A stretch of 64,000 nt of DNA, taken from the IMG/VR virus record IMGVR_UViG_3300045988_157791; one strand, given 5' to 3'. Numbering within the stretch: the stretch's first letter is position 1; each line of letters opens with the position of its first letter. The notes beneath the pieces are model-generated. The model was not told where the DNA came from and did not search any database. It saw only the letters and a list, made by a program, of their open reading frames with translations. Shown piece by piece: positions 59-64,000 of this stretch. Source of the DNA: a virus. Taxonomy: Duplodnaviria > Heunggongvirae > Uroviricota > Caudoviricetes. The position numbers were made by a program, and so were the translations under genes.

Positions 59-145
59 TGGTGGGGAGTGATGGAGTCGAACCACCCGAGTCGCAATGAC
101 AGTAGATTTACAGTCTACCCCGCTGCCCCTACGGACTAACTCCCC
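59..145 (-). tRNA. tRNA-Tyr (anticodon GUA), class II with long variable arm
   Basis: Reverse complement GGGGAGT...GTAGA-CTGTAAA-TCTAC...GGTGG-TTCGACT-CCATC-ACTCCCC-A-CCA; anticodon stem-loop, T-arm and acceptor stem pair correctly. Confidence 0.75.
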
Positions 146-150
146 TAAAT

Positions 151-225
151 TGGCGATGGTGGGTGGATTCGAACCACCGACCAGTTGGTTAACAGCCAAC
201 TGCTCTACCGCTGAGCTACACCATC
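151..225 (-). tRNA. tRNA-Asn (anticodon GUU)
   Basis: Reverse complement GATGGTG-TA-GCTC-AGCGGTA-GAGC-A-GTTGG-CTGTTAA-CCAAC-TGGTC-GGTGG-TTCGAAT-CCACC-CACCATC-G-CCA; complete cloverleaf. Confidence 0.85.
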
Positions 226-33930: not shown

Positions 33931-34806
33931 TTAAATTTTTACATTGGTCAGTGCAGCGATAGCCTTATCGTGCTTATTCGCCAGAGAGCAGTACCACTTC
34001 ACACGGGTACGTACTGCGTCTTTGTTCTGTACAGTACCAATGTTTTCAACAACGATACCTGCGTTGTCGCCGCCATACAGACCAGTAACGCCGTTCTCTT
34101 CTGACAGATGCAGGCAGTAGATGCTTGCTTTGCCAGAATCGGTCGGGATGAAGTCGTTGATGATGAACGGAACGCCGTTATGACACAGCATCGGACGACC
34201 GAAGTTCTCCATCATGATTTCAGACGGACCTACGTTTACTGTACGCAGCAGCGCACGGTAAGCACGCAGGTGCTCTGAACGCATCATGATGCAGTCAGCA
34301 CCAAGATCTTTCACCGCATCGACCAGTTCGTCGAACATAGAGAAAGTCATAGATGCACCGGCGATATCGATCTTCTGATCTGCGTGCATCAGGCGTGGAA
34401 TGCCGTCAAACGCCTTGTTGTTGGAGCTGGAGTCACCCAAAATCAGGTTGCGACGGAACGCACGAGCCAGACCTTTAACTTTCTGACGAACCTGAATAGC
34501 CAACTGGTTGTTGGTGTCGGCCATAGTGGTCGCCAGGAATTTATCAACGTCTACGTCACCAGCCAGAATACGCAGTTTCGCAACGCATTCTTCGAAGGTT
34601 GCTGCACCTTCAGGGATGGTGTCGTTAACGTCGATGAAGGTAGCTTCACTCAGCGTTTTTTCACGGTTGTACAGATATGCCTTTGAATTAATTTTCATAA
34701 AAGGCAGGATGGCAAACAGGTCATCGCGATCGATGATAGTTTCGATCACACCCTGTTCAAGTTCGTTGTTAGACAGCTTTTCAGCTTCTTCACGCAGTAA
34801 TGGCAT
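33931..34806 (-). CDS. major capsid protein
   Basis: 291-aa ORF between scaffold and decoration genes, preceded by a strong hairpin and ribosome-binding site. Assigned by synteny. Confidence 0.6.
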   Translation of the reverse strand: MPLLREEAEKLSNNELEQGVIETIIDRDDLFAILPFMKINSKAYLYNREKTLSEATFIDVNDTIPEGAATFEECVAKLRILAGDVDVDKFLATTMADTNNQLAIQVRQKVKGLARAFRRNLILGDSSSNNKAFDGIPRLMHADQKIDIAGASMTFSMFDELVDAVKDLGADCIMMRSEHLRAYRALLRTVNVGPSEIMMENFGRPMLCHNGVPFIINDFIPTDSGKASIYCLHLSEENGVTGLYGGDNAGIVVENIGTVQNKDAVRTRVKWYCSLANKHDKAIAALTNVKI

Positions 34807-34831
34807 CTATCAATTCCCTTTGATTTAGATG

Positions 34832-35719
34832 TTACTTAAGTCCAATTTTCCCCAGACCGGAGGCCAACTTATCCATAGTCGACTTATTCTTCGGTTGGGA
34901 TATTGTGTAGGTCGATTTGGAATGTGAGCCTACACCCTGCTTGGCTTCGCTACGCATCAATGCGTCAGCTTCCGGATCTGCCCGCACAATGCGTTCAATC
35001 GCGGATTCAAACGGCAACGGCTTACCTTCACCGTCAACCAGAACAGCTCGTTCTTTGTGACCTGCCGGTTTGTCATAACCCACTACGCTACCGTCTTCAC
35101 CCACTTCAAAATGAGAACCGTAGATCACGCGGGCTTTTGCCGGGGTCATCAGAACTTTGTCACGTAGGAAGAGAGAGTTACTGAAGGAAGCGCCCACGGT
35201 CATCTCGACTAATTGAGATTTCAGTGATGCGTTTTCACTTTCCAGTGCTGCATAACGTTCGTCACGCTGTGCCAGCTCTGCCTGGTGTGCTTCGATCATC
35301 TGTTTTTTAACAGCATCGAACTCACCACGACGCTCCAGTTCAGCTTGCTCCGCCTCACGACGTGCGTTTTCTGCGGCCTGTTCAGCTTCTAAAAGCTGGC
35401 GAGCACGAGCCGGATCGATATCACCGTACTGAGCAAGCTGATCGGCCAATGTGCGCTCTTTCTCTTTGCGCTTCATGTTCTCCTTCAGCAGTTCAGCACC
35501 AGCTTTCTTGGTTTTACGAAGTTCGGCCAGTAACTCTTCCTGAGTCATGCCAGCGTATTCGTCATCGCCCTTCGGCTGCTCTTTTTGTTCACCCTGTTTG
35601 TCAGGATCTTGTGTACTCTGCTCATTATCAGCAGCTACACCGCCAGCGCCTCCACGCTCATGCGCTTCAGCGACATCCATCAGACCACGACGGGCCAAAA
35701 GCATTTGCCACAGATTCAT
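34832..35719 (-). CDS. scaffolding protein
   Basis: Highly charged Glu/Ala/Arg/Lys-rich helical protein between portal and capsid genes. Confidence 0.55.
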   Translation of the reverse strand: MNLWQMLLARRGLMDVAEAHERGGAGGVAADNEQSTQDPDKQGEQKEQPKGDDEYAGMTQEELLAELRKTKKAGAELLKENMKRKEKERTLADQLAQYGDIDPARARQLLEAEQAAENARREAEQAELERRGEFDAVKKQMIEAHQAELAQRDERYAALESENASLKSQLVEMTVGASFSNSLFLRDKVLMTPAKARVIYGSHFEVGEDGSVVGYDKPAGHKERAVLVDGEGKPLPFESAIERIVRADPEADALMRSEAKQGVGSHSKSTYTISQPKNKSTMDKLASGLGKIGLK

Positions 35720-54894: not shown

Positions 54895-56928
54895 TTACTT
54901 AACCTGGTGGCCAGGTTTAGCACCAGCATCCGGGCTTAACAGGAAGATATCTTTCCCGCCGGGGCCAGCAGCCATCACCATGCCTTCAGAGATACCGAAG
55001 CGCATTTTACGTGGTGCCAGGTTAGCCACCATAATGGTGTGACGACCAATCAGTGCCTGCGGATCCGGGTAGGCAGAACGAATACCGGAGAAGACATTGC
55101 GTTTTTCACCGCCGAGATCCAGTGTCAGGCGCAGCAGTTTGTCAGAACCTTCAACAAACTCTGCGTTTTCGATCAGCGCTACGCGCAGGTCAACTTTGGC
55201 GAAGTCGTCAAAGGTGATGGTTTCCTGAATCGGATCATCTGCCAGTGGGCCAGTAACTGGCGCGGCAGCTGCTTTCACTTCTTCTTTAGACGCTTCCACC
55301 AGTGCTTCAACCTGCTTCATATCGATGCGGTTATACAGTGCCTTGAACGGATTTACTTTATGGCCCAGCAGCGGTTGCTGGATACCATCCCAGGTCAGTT
55401 CTGTATTCAGGAATGCTTCTGCACGTTCAGTCAGTTTCGGCAGTACCGGCTTCAGGTACGTCATCAGCACGCGGAACAGGTTAATGCCCATAGAGCAAAT
55501 CGCCTGCAGATCGGCATCGCGTCCTTCCTGCTTCGCCACCACCCACGGAGCCTGTTCATCGACATAGCGGTTAGCCAGGTCAGCCAGTGCCATGATTTCA
55601 CGGATAGCTTTACCAAATTCGCGGCTTTCCCACGCTTCACCAATCACTTCAGCGGCATCAGTGAAGGTTTTGTACAACTGCGGGTCAGCCAGCTCGCTTG
55701 CCAGCACACCGTCAAAACGCTTATTGATAAAGCCAGCGTTACGGGACGCCAGGTTAACCACTTTGTTCACGATATCGGCATTCACACGCTGAACGAAATC
55801 CTCCAGGTTGAGATCGATATCATCAATGCGCGAAGAGAGTTTCGCAGTGTAGTAGTAACGCAGGCTGTCAGCGTCAAAATGATTCAGCCAGGTGCTGGCT
55901 TTAATAAAGGTGCCGCGAGACTTGGACATCTTCGCGCCGTTCACCGTCACATAGCCATGAACAAACAGGTTGGTCGGCTTGCGGAAGTTGCTGCCTTCCA
56001 GCATGGCAGGCCAGAACAGGCTGTGGAAGTAAACGATATCTTTACCGATGAAGTGGTACAGCTCGGCGGTGGAGTCTTTCTTCCAGTATTCATCGAAGCT
56101 TACGCTGTCGCCGCGCTTGTCGCACAGATTCTTGAAAGAACCCATGTAGCCAATCGGTGCGTCCAGCCAGACGTAGAAATATTTGCCCGGCGCGTTCGGA
56201 ATTTCAAAACCGAAGTAAGGGGCGTCGCGGGAGATATCCCACTGTTGCAGGCCAGATTCAAACCACTCCTGCATTTTATTTGCCACCTGCTCCTGCAACG
56301 CACCGCTGCGGGTCCATGCCTGCAACATTTCGCTGAAAGAGGGCAGATCAAAGAAGAAGTGTTCAGAATCACGCATTACCGGCGTAGCACCAGAAACCAC
56401 CGATTTCGGTTCAATCAGTTCAGTCGGGCTGTAGGTCGCGCCGCAGACTTCACAGTTATCGCCGTATTGATCTGGCGCTTTACATTTCGGGCAGGTGCCT
56501 TTCACAAAACGGTCCGGCAGGAACATGCCTTTTTCCGGATCGTACAGCTGAGAGATGGTGCGGTTTTTAATAAAACCGTTTTCTTTCAGGCGAGAGTAGA
56601 TAAGTTCTGACAACTGGCGGTTCTCTTCGCTGTGCGTCGAGTGATAGTTGTCATAGCTGATGTTAAAGCCTGCGAAATCAGTCTGATGTTCCTGACTCAT
56701 TTCGCCAATCATCTGCTCCGGTGTGATACCAAGCTGCTGAGCTTTAAGCATGATCGGCGTGCCGTGGGCATCGTCGGCGCAGATGAAGTTGACCTCGTGG
56801 CCGCGCATTCGCTGGTAACGGACCCAGACATCAGCCTGGATGTGCTCCAGCATATGGCCGAGGTGGATTGAGCCGTTAGCGTACGGCAGCGCGCACGTCA
56901 CCAGAATTTTCTTCGCGACTTGGGTCAT
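54895..56928 (-). CDS. metG: methionyl-tRNA synthetase
   Basis: 677-aa protein from [31 protein letters not shown] with class I HIGH-type (HLGH) and KMSKS motifs and C-terminal tRNA-binding domain. The track ORF extends upstream to a non-ATG start. Confidence 0.95.
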
Positions 56929-57085
56929 AGTAGGCATTACTTCTTTGTAGTGAAAAGGGGCTTGATAGTAACAAAATGGCCTTATGTCTGCCATGTGATA
57001 ACAGCATTTCTCATAAATGATTAAATGTCGTAGCTGGAGTACACTACAAGGCGACAATTGCGCAAATTAAAATAAAGGAGACGGG

Positions 57086-58186
57086 ATGAGCGAGTCCAAA
57101 TCGCCGGATGCCCTGAGAGCAATGGTAGCCGGTACGCTGGCTAATTTTCAGCACCCAACCCTGAAACACAACCTGACTACGCTTAAAGCGTTACACCATG
57201 TTGCGTTGATGGATGACACACTGCATGTCGAACTAATCATGCCTTTCGTGTGGAATAAGCCTTTTGAAGACCTGAAAGAGCAATGTAGTGGTGATCTGCT
57301 CCGTATCACTGGCGCAAAGGCTATTGACTGGAAGCTGTCGTACAACATTGCCACGCTTAAGCGCGTCAAAAACCAACCAGGCATTAATGGCGTTAAGAAC
57401 ATTATCGCCGTCAGCTCAGGCAAGGGCGGCGTAGGTAAATCCTCCACGGCGGTAAATCTGGCACTGGCGTTGGCTGCTGAAGGTGCGAAAGTTGGTATTT
57501 TGGATGCCGATATCTATGGTCCATCAATTCCAACCATGCTGGGCGCGGAAAACCAACGTCCAACCTCACCGGACGGTACTCACATGGCACCTATCATGTC
57601 TCATGGCCTGGCAACCAACTCTATTGGTTATCTGGTCACCGACGACAATGCAATGGTGTGGCGTGGACCGATGGCCAGCAAGGCGCTGATGCAGATGTTG
57701 CAGGAAACTCTATGGCCTGATCTGGACTATCTCGTTCTCGATATGCCGCCGGGCACTGGTGATATTCAGTTGACGCTGGCGCAGAACATTCCTGTAACTG
57801 GTGCGGTTGTGGTAACTACGCCGCAAGACATCGCGCTGATCGATGCGAAGAAAGGCATTGTGATGTTCGAAAAAGTCGAAGTGCCGGTACTGGGTATCGT
57901 CGAAAACATGAGTGTGCATATTTGCAGTAACTGCGGTCATCACGAGCCAATTTTTGGCACCGGTGGCGCACAGAAACTGGCCGAGAAATACAACACGCAG
58001 TTGTTAGGCCAAATGCCACTTCATATCTCTCTTCGTGAAGATCTGGATAACGGAACACCAACCGTTATTAGTCGTCCAGATAGCGAATTTACGGCTATTT
58101 ATCGTGACCTCGCAGATCGCGTTGCTGCCCAAATGTATTGGCAAGGTGAAGTAATACCTGGCGAAATCGCATTCCGCGCAGTGTGA
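57086..58186 (+). CDS. apbC: Mrp/ApbC Fe-S cluster carrier ATPase
   Basis: Deviant Walker A SSGKGGVGKSST, CSNCGHH Cys motif, divergent from metG with about 157-bp spacer, the usual enterobacterial arrangement. Confidence 0.9.
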   Translation: MSESKSPDALRAMVAGTLANFQHPTLKHNLTTLKALHHVALMDDTLHVELIMPFVWNKPFEDLKEQCSGDLLRITGAKAIDWKLSYNIATLKRVKNQPGINGVKNIIAVSSGKGGVGKSSTAVNLALALAAEGAKVGILDADIYGPSIPTMLGAENQRPTSPDGTHMAPIMSHGLATNSIGYLVTDDNAMVWRGPMASKALMQMLQETLWPDLDYLVLDMPPGTGDIQLTLAQNIPVTGAVVVTTPQDIALIDAKKGIVMFEKVEVPVLGIVENMSVHICSNCGHHEPIFGTGGAQKLAEKYNTQLLGQMPLHISLREDLDNGTPTVISRPDSEFTAIYRDLADRVAAQMYWQGEVIPGEIAFRAV

Positions 58187-58212
58187 TAAAAAGGCGGTGC
58201 AATGCACCGCCT
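58187..58212. terminator. hairpin terminator between convergent apbC and the UmuD-like gene
   Basis: GGCGGTGCAATGCACCGCC stem-loop flanked by A-run on one side, so a T-run for the minus strand. Confidence 0.55.
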
Positions 58213-58223
58213 AATCAGTTCTC

Positions 58224-58613
58224 CTACATCACGGGACAATCATCAAACTCGCCACTTCTTGCGTCGTTGATAATGTGAGTGATCACACCAAACACGGCAT
58301 TGCTGCCCGTGCATCCATCGTCATCCTTTGGCAATGCTTCCTTCTTACCGGTTCTTAAATCCTCCAGATGCTGACGTGGGTACTTCCGGTATCTTTTTAC
58401 GCGATATTCCCCATCCAGAGCGCATACAAGCAGAGAACCATCAACTGGGGTAAGTGAGGAATCAACCACCAGCAATGCACCCTGTAATATTCCCTCACGA
58501 TGATGACTATCAGCTGCCCGCATGAAGTAGGTCGCTGAAGGATGTCTGATTAGTTGCTGATCAAGAGAAATACGGCTCTCTGCATAATCCGCCGCAGGAG
58601 AAGGGAAGCCCAT
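58224..58613 (-). CDS. UmuD'-like S24 peptidase-fold protein (129 aa), lacks the N-terminal cleavage region
   Basis: MGFPSPAADYAESRISLDQQLIRHPSATYF... parallels UmuD from the post-cleavage Gly onward; Ser (ADSH) and Lys (RVKR) positions retained. No umuC-like gene adjacent. Confidence 0.6.
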   Translation of the reverse strand: MGFPSPAADYAESRISLDQQLIRHPSATYFMRAADSHHREGILQGALLVVDSSLTPVDGSLLVCALDGEYRVKRYRKYPRQHLEDLRTGKKEALPKDDDGCTGSNAVFGVITHIINDARSGEFDDCPVM

Positions 58614-58712
58614 AGCGTTTTACCTCAATGATACTGTTTATTCATACAGTATACATTGAAAAGGCATAGTTTGTGAAAGCGGGGTTTGCAGGCGCGCCAC
58701 GCTGGGGGCTAA

Positions 58713-59105
58713 TCACATTGGTGGCGTGAACTTGCCATTCATATATTGCAAAATGCTTGACTCAATTTTTTCATTAAAATCAGAATGATGCTCCTCAAGG
58801 ACAAAGCGCGCCTTATTGTTGCGCACAATAACCTCCGCCAACGGACTAACCAGAGATGTGGAGTTAGAGATTTTCTCGGCGCGCTCTACATCGCTTTTAA
58901 ACGTTACGATGAAGTGCTGGTGGCCTGGTGACCGGCGACACAACATGCGTCGCACTTCCACGGTATCTTCACGGCCTTGAGTATGTACAGGAAAGCTATC
59001 GACCACCGCTGTATTGGTGCGGATTGTCTGCATAGAACGCGTGTTGTCGTGATAGTTAAGCATGTTTAATGTCTTCCCCATCTTGCCGTTATTTTCTTGG
59101 TGCAT
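58713..59105 (-). CDS. hypothetical protein (130 aa)
   Basis: ORF in leftward operon; no recognisable motif. Confidence 0.4.
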
Positions 59106-59340
59106 CCTCGTTCTGATACACCGGATGGCTTCCTTTTGGCAACTGGAGGCTTAACTGCCGGTAGTGCCGTAACCGTTCCATGAAATAGGTGCGCAGGTTC
59201 TCTGGTTGCTCGCGGGCTACCTGTTCAGCTATGACAGGTATGTTCAATCGCTCTTTGTACGCCACACCGCTGGCAGCCAGATCAACGTTAACCTTATCCC
59301 GTTCTTCCTGACTTTTAGCTGCAATATTCCAGTCGCTCAT
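59089..59340 (-). CDS. hypothetical small protein (83 aa)
   Basis: Charged small ORF, overlaps downstream start. Confidence 0.4.
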
Positions 59341-59654: not shown

Positions 59655-60413
59655 TCAGATATCGGCCTTATTCGGAATTTTATCAGCCACCAGCGGCAAT
59701 AAAGCCTTCGCCATTTCATGAACCAACATGGCATCAATGACGCCTAGCGTATGGACCGGCTTAATCTTTAATGCGGCCTCAAGATAGCCTCTTTCCAGAG
59801 TGGTTTTTACGCTTTTCTTGGGCGATTGTTGGGAACTATCCGGAAAATCCGGATGGTTGCCAGCCAGTCTACGCAAAACGGCCTTAACAGCCTCAATACG
59901 GTCATCATCAACTTTTTCTACAATATTGGAATTTAAATACTTCGAAGCCTTGCTATGCCAATCGCTGGTTTTAGGGTCTTGTCCATCCATCAAACGCCAA
60001 GCTTCAGCGATTAACTCATAGCCAGTAACAGTGGCTTCCTGCGCATCACCAATCAGTTGTGTGATCTCTCTTTCAAGCATGCTTAGAGCGTTAGGCATTG
60101 GTTTTTCTTCCGGTACTACTGGCACTGGAGGGGCGGCGTATACTTCAATTGTCCCATTATCAATAGGCCATTCTCCATCCTTGAGGTAGTCACTTGTGCC
60201 GTCAACTTGCTGTTCTGCAATGTGGAATGCACCTATTGGTTTTGCCTCAAGCGAGGCCAGTGCAATTCGTGCCAGTTTTAGATCTCGTGCAACCATCTCA
60301 ATAACAACTTTGCAGTCCGCACCTTCTTTACTAACACGTCCTTTCAAGTCTTCCAGATAACTAACGCTTTCGCGTGCATGGGAGATTAACTGTTCTTTGG
60401 TTAAGGTGGTCAT
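59655..60413 (-). CDS. hypothetical protein (252 aa)
   Basis: ORF in leftward early-type operon. Confidence 0.45.
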   Translation of the reverse strand: MTTLTKEQLISHARESVSYLEDLKGRVSKEGADCKVVIEMVARDLKLARIALASLEAKPIGAFHIAEQQVDGTSDYLKDGEWPIDNGTIEVYAAPPVPVVPEEKPMPNALSMLEREITQLIGDAQEATVTGYELIAEAWRLMDGQDPKTSDWHSKASKYLNSNIVEKVDDDRIEAVKAVLRRLAGNHPDFPDSSQQSPKKSVKTTLERGYLEAALKIKPVHTLGVIDAMLVHEMAKALLPLVADKIPNKADI

Positions 60414-60634
60414 TAGGCAGCTCTCTCAACAACAAGCAATTCGTCGTAGTCATAATCCGTTTCGGAACCATCCGTACCGAACAGAGTCACTTTGTCACCT
60501 TCCATCCAGAAAGATTTAACCGCACATCGTTTGCCTTTAGATGTTATGACCACATCACCTTGGGTTACATCTTCAGCGCGAACTTCTACTGTTCTCATAA
60601 TGCTGACCCTCTTTGGTGAAAACGCCTGATGCAA
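60413..60634 (-). CDS. hypothetical small protein (73 aa)
   Basis: Start/stop abuts the downstream gene. Confidence 0.35.
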   Translation of the reverse strand: MHQAFSPKRVSIMRTVEVRAEDVTQGDVVITSKGKRCAVKSFWMEGDKVTLFGTDGSETDYDYDELLVVERAA

Positions 60635-61139
60635 TACTGTTTATGATGCTGTCAGTACAGGGAGTAGAAAGCTGGGCATCTCCAGCTATTTTCATGACTT
60701 CGACATTCGCATATCGAATACCGAGGTGTATCAGACCTGCTATACCTGACTTAAGTCGAACATTTTCCATAAACAGATCCTTTTCCCGCTGTTTAACGGT
60801 CTCCAGCTCAACACGCAGTTTCTCAAGCGTTAGGGCCATCTCTACGTTCTCCTGCTCAAGACGTCGGATGTGTTGCTGTCTTTTATCCAGTTCGTCCAGC
60901 AGTGCAATCACATCGGGATCACTATCATCAACTACTGTTACGCGTGATTTTTCATAATGTTCATCTGCAAAAGTACGCCCTATCTTAAAATATCCGTCAT
61001 CACTCTCACCGGAACAGGCATAAACAACATGTGCTCCAGATATGCGCTGTATTGACATTTCCTCGCCACAAACAGAGCATTTAGGCGCTGGTTTTGGTGA
61101 ATAACGTTCACGTAACGTCAGGTAGTAAATCTCATTCAC
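60573..61139 (-). CDS. zinc-ribbon plus coiled-coil protein (188 aa)
   Basis: CSVCGEE...YACSG zinc-ribbon-like N-terminus followed by a coiled-coil segment (RRLEQENVEMALTLEKLRVELETVKQREKDL). Confidence 0.45.
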   Translation of the reverse strand: MNEIYYLTLRERYSPKPAPKCSVCGEEMSIQRISGAHVVYACSGESDDGYFKIGRTFADEHYEKSRVTVVDDSDPDVIALLDELDKRQQHIRRLEQENVEMALTLEKLRVELETVKQREKDLFMENVRLKSGIAGLIHLGIRYANVEVMKIAGDAQLSTPCTDSIINSIASGVFTKEGQHYENSRSSR

Positions 61140-61591
61140 TGTTTATTTCCTGTACGAAGCTCAGCGGCAAAAGCTACTGCGTGATCATGATGTTCAAGTG
61201 TGTATGCGCACTCAGCAAACATCTCCACGCCCTGCGCACGTACTTCAGCCAGAAAAGCATCGGTGGCTGGAGTCTCCGTTAATTCGCTAACCCAATTATC
61301 TCCGTGTTCCTCGGCACACATCGCATCGAATGCTCGCTCAGATTCTTTCAGGGCTGCATTCTCCGCCGCTAATGCGTCTCTCTGCGCCCGCAACTTCTCA
61401 ATTTCAGCAGCCATGTAGTAACCAACCATAGCGAAGACGGCAAAAGAGTTGTCTGCCTCATCAGGCGACACTGAGGCCATTAGCAGGCCATCGTAAAAAT
61501 CGTGACTCCCATTGGTGATCGCCACCGCATAGGAGTCGTGGTTCTCGCGCTTGTGAATGAGAACTACGGGATTTTCGATTTTGTTACTCAT
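61136..61591 (-). CDS. hypothetical protein (151 aa) with coiled-coil segment
   Basis: 4-nt overlap with the downstream gene; AGAAAACAATTT operator-like motif upstream near 61650. Confidence 0.45.
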   Translation of the reverse strand: MSNKIENPVVLIHKRENHDSYAVAITNGSHDFYDGLLMASVSPDEADNSFAVFAMVGYYMAAEIEKLRAQRDALAAENAALKESERAFDAMCAEEHGDNWVSELTETPATDAFLAEVRAQGVEMFAECAYTLEHHDHAVAFAAELRTGNKQ

Positions 61592-61729
61592 GTGTTTTTC
61601 TCTTCTTTGCTGTTACATAAGCACTACCAAGTGCTGGTTTATTTTCACAAATAAGAAAATGTAGAAAACAATTTATTTAAGGCCATAAGTCATGGCCTTT
61701 ATTTATTCATGCAGAAGGATTTGTAGCGC

Positions 61730-62110
61730 CTAATTGCCGTATAAAATGGGTTGAGGCGCTTGCCAGTAAGCTCCACCGTCCCATGTGAACCCCATGCGAA
61801 TAAGAGTGTTTATTGCGGCTTTGGTAGACTCTGATTCGACGCTGACTTTTCGAAACTCTTGAACCTCTTTCGCCAACTTGTATGTAATTGTGCAGGGGAC
61901 GATTGCAGCCCAGCCTTTCTCATGACTGTTAATGACCATCTGGATGTGACCATCCAGAATAGGTTGATCAGGCATGTTATTGAAAACGTCTGCCTGTTTT
62001 TGAATGTGAAGAAAAAGCCTTGCCAGCTCCATTTGCTCACTACGAGACAAGGGATTATCAAGAGGGCTTTTTGCAAAAGCGGCTATACGCTGTGCGTCAA
62101 TGCCAAACAT
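61730..62110 (-). CDS. hypothetical protein (126 aa)
   Basis: Start abuts the stop of 62110-62814. Confidence 0.45.
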   Translation of the reverse strand: MFGIDAQRIAAFAKSPLDNPLSRSEQMELARLFLHIQKQADVFNNMPDQPILDGHIQMVINSHEKGWAAIVPCTITYKLAKEVQEFRKVSVESESTKAAINTLIRMGFTWDGGAYWQAPQPILYGN

Positions 62111-62814
62111 CAGCGCACCTCACCATCTTTATGGCTGGAGTTAACTTCCGTCATTAAATGTCTGACGTAATCGACAAGAGAGCCGCCTGGTGGAATCTGG
62201 CATTCCTCAACTAACTGGAAGTAGATATCCGCTGCATTACGTGTATTGCTACCCGCGCATATTCTTTCTTCCCGAAGTGCATGAAGCTCGTTGATCAAAC
62301 GGTCACACTCTCCGTTACGCTGATCCACAACAGCCTCAAGTTCTGCGACGCGTTCACCTGGCGTCTTACCTTCTTTGCGTTGGATGGTAACGACGAAATC
62401 GCCAATTGCAGGGACGTTGTAATCCAGCTCAAGGTAGTTTTTGGCACCGCTGCGGACGAACTCACCCGCGAACATGGTGGCGAACATCGCAGAGGCCACT
62501 TCGCCGTTGAAAAGTGACTCCAGATCTAACGGAGTCCCGGCATCAAGAGCCTCTTTTGCTGTATCCATTGCATCCATGAACCGATCAAACTCATTGGCGC
62601 GCTTTTCCAAGTTTTTCCATTGCTCGCTCCAACGTTTGGCAACGAAGTCTATGAATGTTTTCGCGGATTCATCAAAATCCCCCTCAAACTTAACGATGCC
62701 TTTATCAATAATGATCTGGCCTACCGCATCCTCTGCATAACCTTTCAATGTAAACTTGAAAGGAAAATCAGAATGGCCTGTGACGTTAAAATGCTCTAAC
62801 TGGAGGTTGTTCAT
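62110..62814 (-). CDS. hypothetical protein (234 aa)
   Basis: Preceded by TAGGTAAGTATTTACCTATC motif at 62855-62880. Confidence 0.45.
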   Translation of the reverse strand: MNNLQLEHFNVTGHSDFPFKFTLKGYAEDAVGQIIIDKGIVKFEGDFDESAKTFIDFVAKRWSEQWKNLEKRANEFDRFMDAMDTAKEALDAGTPLDLESLFNGEVASAMFATMFAGEFVRSGAKNYLELDYNVPAIGDFVVTIQRKEGKTPGERVAELEAVVDQRNGECDRLINELHALREERICAGSNTRNAADIYFQLVEECQIPPGGSLVDYVRHLMTEVNSSHKDGEVR

Positions 62815-62875
62815 GTGTTTTTCTCTTATCGTTTAGTAACTACATTCTTACACAAATTAGGTAAGTATTTACCTA

Positions 62876-63931
62876 TCATTTAACGCGTTTGAAAACGTAT
62901 ACGCTGACTGTGATCCCTGTGTCTTCAAACTCGTTGGTAAACGACTTCCCTCTGGCATAAACGTAATTATCCATCGTCATCCAGTCCAGTATTGGCGCAG
63001 TGCCCGGCAATACTGCTACAAGACGCCCGCCGACTTTCAGATGCCCCAGCGCAGCCAGCGTGTGCTCTCTATGACGACCAAGCGAGTACGGCGGGTTCAT
63101 AACGATTTTGTCGAACTGATAACCTACGTTGTCCTCAGACCACTTTATGAAGTCGCAGCAAATCGTGTTCGTATACCCTTTTCCGCGCAGGATATCAGCG
63201 AAGAGAGGTGCGATTTCTATGCAGGTAACATCTTCCAGATCGGCGTTGATATAGGCCAGAAGATCCCCACGTCCGGCTTGAGGCTCCAGCAGCTTCTCAC
63301 CAGACTTCAATTCAGTGGCTCTGGCAACGTACTCAGCAATCAAGCGTGGGGTAGGGTAGAACTGGTGTGATTTTGTATCCGGTATTAATCCGGTAGCCAC
63401 AATCGTATTTAGCGTATGGCCGATCTCATACGGGAACTGCCAGTGCTTTTTCTCCTGCACGCCGCCAATGAAGCTCAGTGTGCGCTCAAGCTCTTCCACC
63501 TGCGACTTCTGGAGAGCTGAATCAGAGAAGTACCATACGCCTTTGTCTTTGCTTAATCGCCCGTCACGAAGCGCAGTGCGAACCGGCACGGAGATCGTCT
63601 TCTGGATTAACCCGAACTGCTTTGGTGCCCGTGTTTTTGGCGCGGTGCGACATGGCGCGGGGATTGCAGCAGGCATACTGTAAGCCAGCACCTCATTCAA
63701 CTTCCAGGCCACGTCAGGATGTATTTCAAAGTGAACGTTGCCGTTCTTGAACATCTTCACGCGCATTAGATTTCCATCGACGTTCATCCAGTCACCGGTC
63801 TGGCAGTCGTTTGCCCGATACGCAGCTGATAGCACCTCAGCAGTGCGGTTGATGGTAATAAATTCTTTGTGCGCGAAGAAATGAAGCAAGACACGCAGAT
63901 CGTCGATATAGTCCTCTTTGCGATAGTTCAC
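62876..63931 (-). CDS. N6-adenine DNA methyltransferase
   Basis: Motif I LEPQAGRGDL (S-adenosylmethionine binding) and motif IV NPPY; no restriction endonuclease gene adjacent in window. Confidence 0.75.
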   Translation of the reverse strand: MNYRKEDYIDDLRVLLHFFAHKEFITINRTAEVLSAAYRANDCQTGDWMNVDGNLMRVKMFKNGNVHFEIHPDVAWKLNEVLAYSMPAAIPAPCRTAPKTRAPKQFGLIQKTISVPVRTALRDGRLSKDKGVWYFSDSALQKSQVEELERTLSFIGGVQEKKHWQFPYEIGHTLNTIVATGLIPDTKSHQFYPTPRLIAEYVARATELKSGEKLLEPQAGRGDLLAYINADLEDVTCIEIAPLFADILRGKGYTNTICCDFIKWSEDNVGYQFDKIVMNPPYSLGRHREHTLAALGHLKVGGRLVAVLPGTAPILDWMTMDNYVYARGKSFTNEFEDTGITVSVYVFKRVK

Positions 63932-64000
63932 ACTAACGCTGTCCCGCCAGAAATCAGAAATGCAGTCAGCGATTATCAGACGTTCGCTGAAACCGTTTGT

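What the first reader, a model, noticed from the sequence alone, without database searches (positions are those of the whole stretch)
58224..58613. Naturally truncated UmuD'-like protein without UmuC
The 129-aa product aligns with UmuD starting at the Gly that follows the RecA-stimulated self-cleavage site (MGFPSPAADY... versus UmuD ...C/GFPSPAADY...), so it resembles an already activated UmuD'. The catalytic Ser and Lys positions appear retained (ADSH, RVKR), yet no umuC-like polymerase gene follows; the gene ends about 40 bp from apbC. Either a remnant or a stand-alone modulator of host SOS mutagenesis.
Basis: partly seen in the sequence, partly recalled or inferred. Interest (0 to 1): 0.5.

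Follow-up and report, generated by a model that had tools for sequence, protein, structure and literature searches.

The report
HumD: phage-borne pre-activated UmuD'
The gene is an intact, SOS-regulated copy of HumD, the already known "pre-cut" UmuD' protein of phage P1, here carried on an SSU5-type phage-plasmid of E. coli.

Summary
The 129-aa ORF at 58224-58613 (minus strand) is real. It begins at the residue equivalent to Gly25 of E. coli UmuD, so it is a natural UmuD'. It matches NCBIfam's HumD equivalog end to end (219.7 bits, cutoff 120). It is 92% identical to phage P1 HumD, and an identical protein already sits on a sequenced E. coli plasmid. The only LexA box in the 64-kb window (TACTGTATGAATAAACAGTA) overlaps the -10 of its promoter. 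A GAGG ribosome site and a terminator complete the unit. dN/dS against P1 humD is 0.05, so it is not a remnant. No upstream frame encodes a UmuD N-arm or a repressor DNA-binding domain. No umuC homolog occurs in the window or in the closest full-length relative. The window is not a chromosome. It is an SSU5-group phage-plasmid (about 110 kb) that also carries its own metG and apbC copies. As in P1, humD lies near hot, a Pol III theta homolog. The most likely mechanism is taken from experiments on P1 HumD. LexA-derepressed HumD dimerises and partners host UmuC as a Pol V-like translesion polymerase, without RecA-mediated cleavage. Verdict: already known, low interest. One small loose end is a near-invariant, predicted-disordered C-terminal tail (EFDDCPVM) that UmuD lacks.

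The parts
58224..58613 (-). humD coding sequence, 129 aa. A HumD-family UmuD'-like protein with Ser36 and Lys73 at the UmuD Ser60 and Lys97 positions, and a C-terminal tail EFDDCPVM at residues 122-129.
   Evidence: ORF list. NCBIfam NF051876 at 219.7 bits over 1-129/129. Pfam Peptidase_S24. PDB UmuD' at E 3.5e-23. 92% identity to P1 HumD. dN/dS 0.053. The AF2 core resembles UmuD'.
58632..58651 (.). LexA (SOS) box TACTGTATGAATAAACAGTA, read on the minus strand. Its 5' end lies 39 nt upstream of the ATG.
   Evidence: It is the only match within 3 mismatches of the consensus in the 64-kb window, with 0.01 expected by chance, and the only CTGT-N8-ACAG. The homologous P1 site is annotated as a LexA binding site. 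A box sits at -34 to -40 in other HumD genes and in E. coli umuD.
58648..58677 (-). Predicted sigma-70 promoter: -35 TTCACA (58677-58672), an 18-nt spacer, and -10 TATACT (58653-58648). The -10 overlaps the LexA box.
   Evidence: Consensus scan, 10 of 12 matches. This is a prediction only; the number of promoter-like sites in the region does not exceed the shuffled expectation.
58623..58626 (-). Shine-Dalgarno GAGG, 9 nt upstream of the ATG.
   Evidence: Read directly from the sequence. It is conserved in P1.
58192..58212 (-). Intrinsic terminator hairpin (9 bp stem, 7 GC pairs) followed by TTTTT on the minus strand. It lies between the convergent humD and apbC genes.
   Evidence: Terminator scan.
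59089..59340 (-). hot, a homolog of DNA polymerase III theta and a linked neighbour. Together with humD it forms a module shared with phage P1.
   Evidence: Pfam DNA_pol3_theta at E 4.5e-34. 88% amino-acid and 93% nucleotide identity to P1 hot. A hot-humD neighbourhood is also seen in a Salmonella P1-like element and another E. coli SSU5-like element.
58713..59105 (-). 130-aa ORF of unknown function between hot and humD. It occupies the place where P1 and other SSU5-like elements carry lxr on the opposite strand.
   Evidence: phrog_2594, unknown function, E 8e-35. No Lxr homolog occurs in the window, whereas Lxr is present in L017 at 77% identity. P1 DNA homology is interrupted here.

Best explanation
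This is humD, an SOS-inducible gene for a 'pre-processed' UmuD' subunit, carried by an SSU5-group phage-plasmid of E. coli. In undamaged cells host LexA binds the box that overlaps the -10 of the humD promoter and keeps it off. After DNA damage LexA is cleaved and HumD is made. HumD lacks the 24-residue N-terminal arm, so it needs no RecA-stimulated self-cleavage. It dimerises and pairs with the host's chromosomal UmuC, with RecA and ATP, to give a Pol V-like translesion polymerase. This raises damage tolerance and mutagenesis of host and element during SOS. Shown here: the family identity, the start at Gly25, the LexA box, purifying selection, and the absence of umuC on the element. Taken from published work on the 92%-identical P1 protein: complementation of UmuD', and dimerisation and binding to UmuC and RecA filaments (the last two recalled from memory). 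Inferred: that the same applies to this copy, and that it benefits the phage-plasmid.
For: NCBIfam HumD equivalog over the full length, far above cutoff. UmuD' is the best sequence hit and the best fold hit. The protein is 92% identical to P1 HumD and 99% to phage Cyrano's copy. The P1 record says 'functionally complements E. coli UmuD'' and annotates the homologous LexA site. PMC7092418 describes HumD as an already activated UmuD, citing McLenigan et al. 1999. The window holds a single strong LexA box overlapping the predicted -10, and its position is conserved across HumD genes and umuD. dN/dS is 0.053. There is no UmuC in the window or in the complete relative, while E. coli has chromosomal umuDC. 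humD-like DNA is found in 719 of 5426 complete E. coli genomes, mostly on plasmids.
Against: No experiment exists on this copy. As I recall the paper (not readable here), P1 HumD complemented well only when over-expressed. humD is non-essential for P1 lytic growth, so its natural role is not established. The family carries a near-invariant C-terminal tail and a loop insertion that UmuD' lacks. This suggests some function beyond simple UmuD' mimicry. The recurrent neighbours, hot (theta homolog) or dinI, fit a broader role in tuning the replisome or RecA equally well.
Confidence: 0.8

Rival explanations
1. HumD mainly modulates the replisome or the SOS response rather than serving as a mutagenesis subunit. 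It would bind Pol III subunits (alpha, beta, epsilon), RecA filaments or SSB partners, and so manage replication of the extrachromosomal element during damage. The conserved acidic C-terminal tail would act as a docking motif.
For: humD sits next to hot (theta homolog) in P1-like and SSU5-like phage-plasmids, and next to dinI in N15-like elements and HK140. This element encodes its own DnaE. The tail E-F-D-D-C-P-V-[M/I/L] is near-invariant in 72 family representatives, absent from UmuD and predicted disordered. It loosely resembles the E. coli SSB tip DFDDDIPF. That UmuD gene products bind Pol III subunits is established knowledge (Silva et al. 2012, listed).
Against: The only experimental evidence for the family is UmuD' complementation. 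The resemblance to the SSB tail is short and the proline is out of register. Gene neighbourhood is only suggestive, and the gene between hot and humD is swapped freely.
Confidence: 0.12
2. The gene is a decaying remnant of a umuDC operon that lost its N-terminal codons and umuC.
For: There is no umuC on the element. The GDSM active-site motif is degraded to ADSH. Truncated humD fragments do occur in Stx phages.
Against: dN/dS is 0.053 at dS 0.73 against P1. The 126-130 aa length and the MGFPSPA start are conserved across about 100 clusters. The gene has its own LexA box, SD and terminator. A curated equivalog model covers 1-129 of 129.
Confidence: 0.02
3. The ORF is the C-terminal S24 domain of a disrupted phage repressor (CI or LexA type), or it has a frameshifted N-terminal segment upstream.
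For: It belongs to Pfam Peptidase_S24, and some database entries call its homologs 'LexA family transcriptional regulator'.
Against: The LexA model scores 27.9 bits against a cutoff of 111, while HumD scores 219.7. PDB LexA hits are at E ~1e-3 against 1e-23 for UmuD'. An in-frame stop lies 3 codons upstream, and none of the three upstream frames has a UmuD-arm or HTH-like peptide. Homology to P1 begins in the promoter region, not in a coding region.
Confidence: 0.01
4. HumD acts as an anti-mutagenic or dominant-negative factor. It would sequester host UmuC or form heterodimers with host UmuD, lowering Pol V activity.
For: None was obtained here. The idea is conceivable because UmuD/UmuD' heterodimers are known to down-regulate Pol V (established knowledge).
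Against: The title of McLenigan et al. 1999 says P1 HumD facilitates SOS mutagenesis, and the P1 record's note says it complements UmuD'.
Confidence: 0.05

Closest known systems
Bacteriophage P1 HumD (AAQ14073; McLenigan et al. 1999, J Bacteriol 181:7005)
   Same: Both are 129 aa and 92% identical. They share the MGFPSPAADY start at UmuD Gly25 and the EFDDCPV[M/I] tail. A LexA box sits at the same distance from the ATG, the SD is the same, hot lies upstream, and there is no umuC.
   Different: The host element is an SSU5-group siphovirus-type phage-plasmid, not P1. P1's divergent lxr gene is replaced by an unrelated co-directional 130-aa ORF. Downstream lie apbC and metG instead of phd-doc.
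E. coli UmuD / UmuD' (Pol V accessory subunit; PDB 1umu, 1ay9, 1i4v, 8gmt)
   Same: The fold is the same, with 43-45% identity across UmuD residues 25-139. Ser and Lys occupy the dyad positions. The gene has a LexA-regulated promoter with the box about 39 nt upstream of the ATG.
   Different: There is no 24-residue N-arm and no cleavage site, so no activation step. GDSM becomes ADSH. A 4-5 residue loop insertion and a 10-residue acidic C-terminal extension are present. The gene is not in an operon with umuC. It scores below the NCBIfam UmuD cutoff (87.9 against 110).
HumD-type genes of N15 (gp26), phiKO2 (gp23), HK140, HK639 and P22-like BTP1
   Same: They are about 128-129 aa, begin MGFPSPA, carry the EFDD-x-P tail and stand alone without umuC. 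N15 and phiKO2-like elements are phage-plasmids, the rest are temperate phages. Identity is 62-71%.
   Different: They sit after the tail-fibre genes, near par genes or the integrase, often back-to-back with dinI rather than with hot. The nucleophile position is Thr.
Phage-borne complete umuDC operons (Escherichia phage PHB10, Cronobacter phage ENT39118)
   Same: They are LexA-boxed S24 genes in temperate phages, 40-45% identical.
   Different: They keep the N-terminal arm with its cleavage site and the GDSM motif, and are followed by umuC. They lack the acidic tail.

Membership tests
HumD family (NCBIfam NF051876, 'HumD family translesion DNA polymerase') | Scores above the curated cutoff of the equivalog model over its full length. 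| tested here: met
   219.7 bits against a cutoff of 120, residues 1-129 on profile positions 1-129 of 129.
HumD family (NCBIfam NF051876, 'HumD family translesion DNA polymerase') | The protein starts at the residue equivalent to UmuD Gly25, so it has no N-terminal arm and no Cys/Gly cleavage site. | tested here: met
   Alignments with UmuD and UmuD'. An in-frame stop lies 3 codons upstream and no arm-like peptide appears in other frames.
HumD family (NCBIfam NF051876, 'HumD family translesion DNA polymerase') | UmuD'-type S24 beta fold. | tested here: met
   Pfam PF00717. The AF2 model core has pLDDT 85-91. The top five Foldseek PDB hits are all UmuD or UmuD'.
HumD family (NCBIfam NF051876, 'HumD family translesion DNA polymerase') | A stand-alone gene with no cognate umuC on the element. 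| tested here: met
   tblastn with UmuC gives best E 2.6 in the window and 0.47 in the complete relative. Annotation of all 135 features of pSCU-306-2 shows none.
HumD family (NCBIfam NF051876, 'HumD family translesion DNA polymerase') | LexA operator in the promoter (SOS regulation). | tested here: met
   Box at 58632-58651, unique in the window. It is homologous to P1's annotated LexA site and conserved in position across the family. Binding itself cannot be tested here.
HumD family (NCBIfam NF051876, 'HumD family translesion DNA polymerase') | Family-specific C-terminal tail E-F-D-D-C-P-V-[M/I/L]. | tested here: met
   The window protein ends SGEFDDCPVM. The tail is near-invariant in 72 representatives.
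HumD family (NCBIfam NF051876, 'HumD family translesion DNA polymerase') | Complements UmuD' in vivo, forms dimers, and binds UmuC and RecA filaments. | not testable with these tools
   Known only for P1 HumD (the record note; PMC7092418). The primary paper PMC94175 is not held.
UmuD proper (NCBIfam NF007621, autoproteolytic subunit of Pol V) | Scores above the model cutoff, has an N-terminal arm with a Cys/Ala-Gly cleavage site and a GDSM active site, and lies in an operon with umuC. | tested here: not met
   87.9 bits against a cutoff of 110. There is no arm, ADSH replaces GDSM, and there is no umuC.
LexA / CI-type S24 repressors | An N-terminal DNA-binding domain joined to an S24 domain, and a score above the LexA model cutoff. 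| tested here: not met
   TIGR00498 scores 27.9 bits against a cutoff of 110.95 and covers only the S24 part. No upstream coding sequence exists.
SSU5-group phage-plasmids (host element of the gene) | A plasmid of about 100-115 kb with repA and par genes, siphovirus structural genes collinear with SSU5, and a large nucleotide-metabolism and replication gene set. | tested here: met
   The window is collinear at 94-99% with plasmid pSCU-306-2, which carries repA, parB, dnaE, nrdAB, thyA, dfrA51, tRNAs, terminase, portal, capsid and tail genes. It shares 81% nucleotide identity with SSU5 over the structural genes and 99% with phage Cyrano. dfrA51 is the SSU5 gene (PMC12217456).

The most novel reading that the evidence does not exclude
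HumD is more than a ready-made UmuD'. Its near-invariant, predicted-disordered acidic C-terminal tail (EFDDCPV-M/I/L) is absent from all UmuD proteins compared here and faintly resembles the SSB C-terminal tip DFDDDIPF. The tail may be a short linear docking motif that links HumD to SSB-partner or replisome proteins. Together with its recurrent neighbours hot (theta homolog) or dinI, HumD would then form a mobile module that retunes replication and SOS, and that extrachromosomal prophages exchange among unrelated phage-plasmid families.
Probability: 0.1. Interest if true: 0.5.

Novelty: already known. Interest (0 to 1): 0.15.

Why it matters
It matters little as a discovery. HumD was characterised in phage P1 in 1999, has a curated NCBIfam model, and its DNA is detectable in about 13% of complete E. 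coli genomes. The result is useful in three modest ways. It explains the finding fully. It corrects the context, because the neighbouring apbC and metG are cargo of a phage-plasmid rather than chromosomal genes. It also shows that the P1 hot/humD module circulates in SSU5-type phage-plasmids, which are clinically widespread carriers of resistance genes. A LexA-controlled activator of error-prone synthesis that needs no cleavage, sitting on such elements, could affect how fast their hosts mutate under DNA-damaging antibiotics. That has not been measured for this element.

Tried and rejected
1. I searched for a partner polymerase. tblastn with K-12 UmuC against the window and against the complete relative pSCU-306-2 gave nothing.

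2. I searched for P1 Lxr in the window and found it absent. It is present in another SSU5-like element, so lxr was replaced in this lineage.

3. I looked for a frameshifted N-terminal arm or a repressor DNA-binding domain by translating all three upstream frames. None was found.

4. I tried to read three primary papers: McLenigan 1999 (PMC94175), Lobocka 2004 (PMC523184) and Chikova & Schaaper 2007 (PMC2072811). None is held. The functional claims for P1 HumD therefore rest on the GenBank note, a secondary citation, paper titles in reference lists, and my memory of the abstract.

5. I searched a phage-plasmid survey preprint for umuD, metG, apbC, theta and S24 and got no mentions.

6. I looked for an SSB gene on the element to put the SSB-like tail in context and found none.

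7. The dN/dS calculation against the 83%-identical P0012-type gene failed because synonymous sites are saturated.

8. The AF2 monomer model says nothing useful about the tail beyond low confidence. No multimer prediction was available.

Full report
**Observation**

The ORF is present as described, on the minus strand at 58224..58613, and encodes 129 aa (MGFPSPAADY...DDCPVM).
- It matches Pfam Peptidase_S24 (E 1.3e-9).
- Its best solved relatives are E. coli UmuD' (1umu, E 3.5e-23) and UmuD. LexA chains appear only at E ~1e-3.
- In those alignments residue 2 (Gly) pairs with residue 1 of the UmuD' crystal construct and with residue 25 of full-length UmuD. The protein therefore begins exactly after the Cys24/Gly25 self-cleavage site.
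- Ser36 and Lys73 fall on UmuD Ser60 and Lys97.
- An AlphaFold2 model built on 72 family members has a confident core (pLDDT 85-91 over about residues 30-95). Its five best PDB matches are all UmuD or UmuD'.

**Family identity**

- NCBIfam has a dedicated equivalog model, NF051876 "HumD family translesion DNA polymerase", 129 positions long. The window protein matches it end to end at 219.7 bits (cutoff 120).
- It fails the UmuD model (87.9 against 110) and the LexA model (27.9 against 111).
- It is 92% identical to phage P1 HumD, 93% to P7 and SJ46, 99% to Escherichia phage Cyrano, and 62-71% to the UmuD-like proteins of N15, phiKO2, HK140, HK639 and BTP1.
- An identical protein is encoded on E. 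coli plasmid NZ_MT773672.1, and more than 640 PLSDB plasmids encode a protein at least 90% identical.
- humD-like DNA is detectable in 719 of 5426 complete E. coli genomes, and 649 of 762 places are on plasmids. PGAP already names the closest copy "HumD family translesion DNA polymerase".
- The big protein collection holds 578 relatives. Nearly all of the top 120 are 126-130 aa and start MGFPSPA.

**Not a remnant, not a broken repressor**

- Against P1 humD, dS is 0.73 and dN is 0.039, giving dN/dS of 0.053. This indicates strong purifying selection.
- An in-frame stop lies three codons upstream of the ATG. None of the three upstream frames encodes anything like the UmuD N-arm or a helix-turn-helix.
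- DNA homology to P1 starts in the promoter region (window 58666) and ends at the stop codon (58225).

**Regulatory anatomy**

- The 20-mer TACTGTATGAATAAACAGTA (58632-58651) has 17/20 matches to the LexA consensus. It is the only such site in the 64-kb window, with 0.01 expected by chance, and the only CTGT-N8-ACAG.
- It overlaps the -10 (TATACT) of a predicted sigma-70 promoter (TTCACA, 18 nt, TATACT).
- It is homologous to the site annotated in P1 as the LexA binding site for lxr and humD.
- A box at -34 to -40 from the ATG is also found in HumD genes of another SSU5-like element, a Salmonella P1-like element, N15, a Hafnia phage and a Pantoea phage. It is also found in full-length umuD of E. 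coli K-12 and two phages.
- GAGG lies 9 nt before the ATG.
- A GC-rich hairpin plus a T-run (58212-58192) follows the stop and separates humD from the convergent apbC.

**No UmuC**

- tblastn with K-12 UmuC finds nothing in the window (best E 2.6) or in the complete collinear relative pSCU-306-2 (best E 0.47).
- None of that plasmid's 135 annotated features is a Y-family polymerase.
- The host species has chromosomal umuDC.

The window is not chromosomal.
- It is collinear at 94-99% with circular E. coli plasmids of about 110 kb. These carry repA, parB-like genes, dnaE, a DnaB-like helicase, ligase, nrdAB, thymidylate synthase, dfrA51, tRNAs, and a full set of siphovirus head and tail genes.
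- It is 99% identical to phage Cyrano and 81% to Salmonella phage-plasmid SSU5 over the structural genes. dfrA51 is the SSU5 gene. The element therefore belongs to the SSU5 group of phage-plasmids.
- The metG and apbC next to humD are cargo copies on this element, 80-90% identical to the E. coli chromosomal genes. They are shared by Cyrano, CMS-2020a and PhiR41_1. They are absent at this position in another E. coli SSU5-like lineage, where a DUF4145 gene follows humD.

**The hot-humD module**

- Upstream of humD lies hot, a Pol III theta homolog (Pfam E 4.5e-34; 88% amino-acid and 93% nucleotide identity to P1 hot).
- P1 has hot, then lxr on the opposite strand, then the LexA box, then humD.
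- Another SSU5-like E. coli element has the same arrangement, including an Lxr that is 77% identical.
- In this window lxr is replaced by an unrelated co-directional 130-aa ORF (phrog_2594, unknown function) that overlaps hot by 17 nt.
- In N15-like Klebsiella elements and in HK140, the neighbour of humD is dinI instead.
- In PHB10 and ENT39118 the equivalent slot holds a complete umuDC operon.

**Mechanism**

The best-supported mechanism is the one established for P1 HumD.
- The P1 GenBank record says the protein "functionally complements E. coli UmuD'".
[quoted passage not shown] 1999.
- The primary paper is not held. From memory, it also reported dimer formation, binding to UmuC and RecA filaments, and good complementation only at high expression.
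- The proposed sequence is as follows. LexA derepression produces HumD. HumD forms a dimer, pairs with host UmuC, and gives Pol V-like translesion synthesis without the RecA-dependent cleavage delay.
- The steps shown here are sequence-level: identity, start point, operator, selection, and lack of umuC. The biochemical steps are inferred from the 92%-identical protein.
- humD is non-essential for P1 lytic growth, so its natural benefit remains unclear.

**Refinements and loose ends**

1. The "retained" catalytic dyad is probably vestigial.
   - The GDSM motif is ADSH here.
   - Among 72 family representatives the nucleophile position is Ser in 38, Thr in 33 and Ala in 1, while Lys is invariant.
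   - In more distant HumD-type phage proteins the Ser position is Tyr or Thr and the Lys position is Arg or Ala.
2. The family has a near-invariant C-terminal tail, E-F-D-D-C-P-V-[M/I/L].
   - It is absent from UmuD and from the phage full-length UmuDs.
   - It is predicted disordered, with pLDDT below 50.
   - It loosely resembles the E. coli SSB tip DFDDDIPF, but the proline is out of register. I could not test any interaction.
   - This is the only feature that leaves room for a function beyond UmuD' mimicry.

**Verdict**

The object is an ordinary, already named and experimentally characterised kind of gene, HumD. Novelty is "already known" and interest is low (0.15).

Noticed in passing
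window 54895-58186 (metG about 54895-56928 on the minus strand; apbC 57086-58186 on the plus strand): The phage-plasmid carries full-length copies of methionyl-tRNA synthetase and the Fe-S carrier ApbC/Mrp. They are only 80-90% identical in DNA to the E. coli chromosomal genes. They are shared by phages Cyrano, CMS-2020a and PhiR41_1 but absent at this spot in another E. coli SSU5-like lineage. I did not determine their donor species or their function on the element.
   Followed up: partly
window 59089-59340 (-): This is hot, a homolog of the DNA polymerase III theta subunit, 88% identical to P1 Hot. It lies two genes upstream of humD, as in P1. The element also encodes its own DnaE and a 3'-5' exonuclease, according to the annotation of the relative.
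   Followed up: partly
window 58713-59105 (-): A 130-aa ORF (phrog_2594, unknown function) replaces P1's lxr between hot and humD and overlaps hot by 17 nt. A 35%-identical paralog exists elsewhere on the relative plasmid, at pSCU-306-2 34806-35138.
   Followed up: partly
window 58224-58250 (HumD residues 121-129); family alignment A3: The C-terminal tail E-F-D-D-C-P-V-[M/I/L] is near-invariant in the HumD family, absent from UmuD and predicted disordered. It loosely resembles the SSB C-terminal tip DFDDDIPF. The element itself has no SSB gene.
   Followed up: partly
L013-L015 (Klebsiella N15-like elements) and L008 (phage HK140): In these elements humD sits next to dinI, directly back-to-back in the Klebsiella loci and with one small gene between in HK140. 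DinI, from general knowledge, inhibits RecA-mediated UmuD cleavage. Pairing it with a cleavage-independent UmuD' is suggestive but untested.
   Followed up: no
phage records H38-H46 (Stx-converting phages, mEp234, Sf101): Unannotated tblastn matches cover only HumD residues about 45-128 at about 54% identity. They look like truncated humD remnants near the ends of Stx-converting and other lambdoid prophage genomes.
   Followed up: no
window 59-225 (-): tRNA-Tyr(GTA) and tRNA-Asn(GTT) genes lie at the start of the window. They are part of the phage-plasmid's tRNA cluster; the relative also has tRNA-Thr and tRNA-Ser.
   Followed up: no
window 59655-64000 (-): A run of lambdoid 'ea'-type accessory genes (Ead/Ea22-like, Eaa-like) and a DUF4942 protein lies upstream of hot, according to the annotations of Cyrano and pSCU-306-2. 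The ORF at 62876-63931 runs into the DUF4942 gene, which extends beyond the window.
   Followed up: no
plasmid hits H60-H65 (36-64 kb Klebsiella and E. coli plasmids): A second group of 'S24 family peptidase' genes is about 48% identical to HumD. The match starts at residue 1 and covers residues 1-115. They may be another stand-alone UmuD'-like lineage on small plasmids. I did not examine them for the N-arm or for umuC.
   Followed up: no
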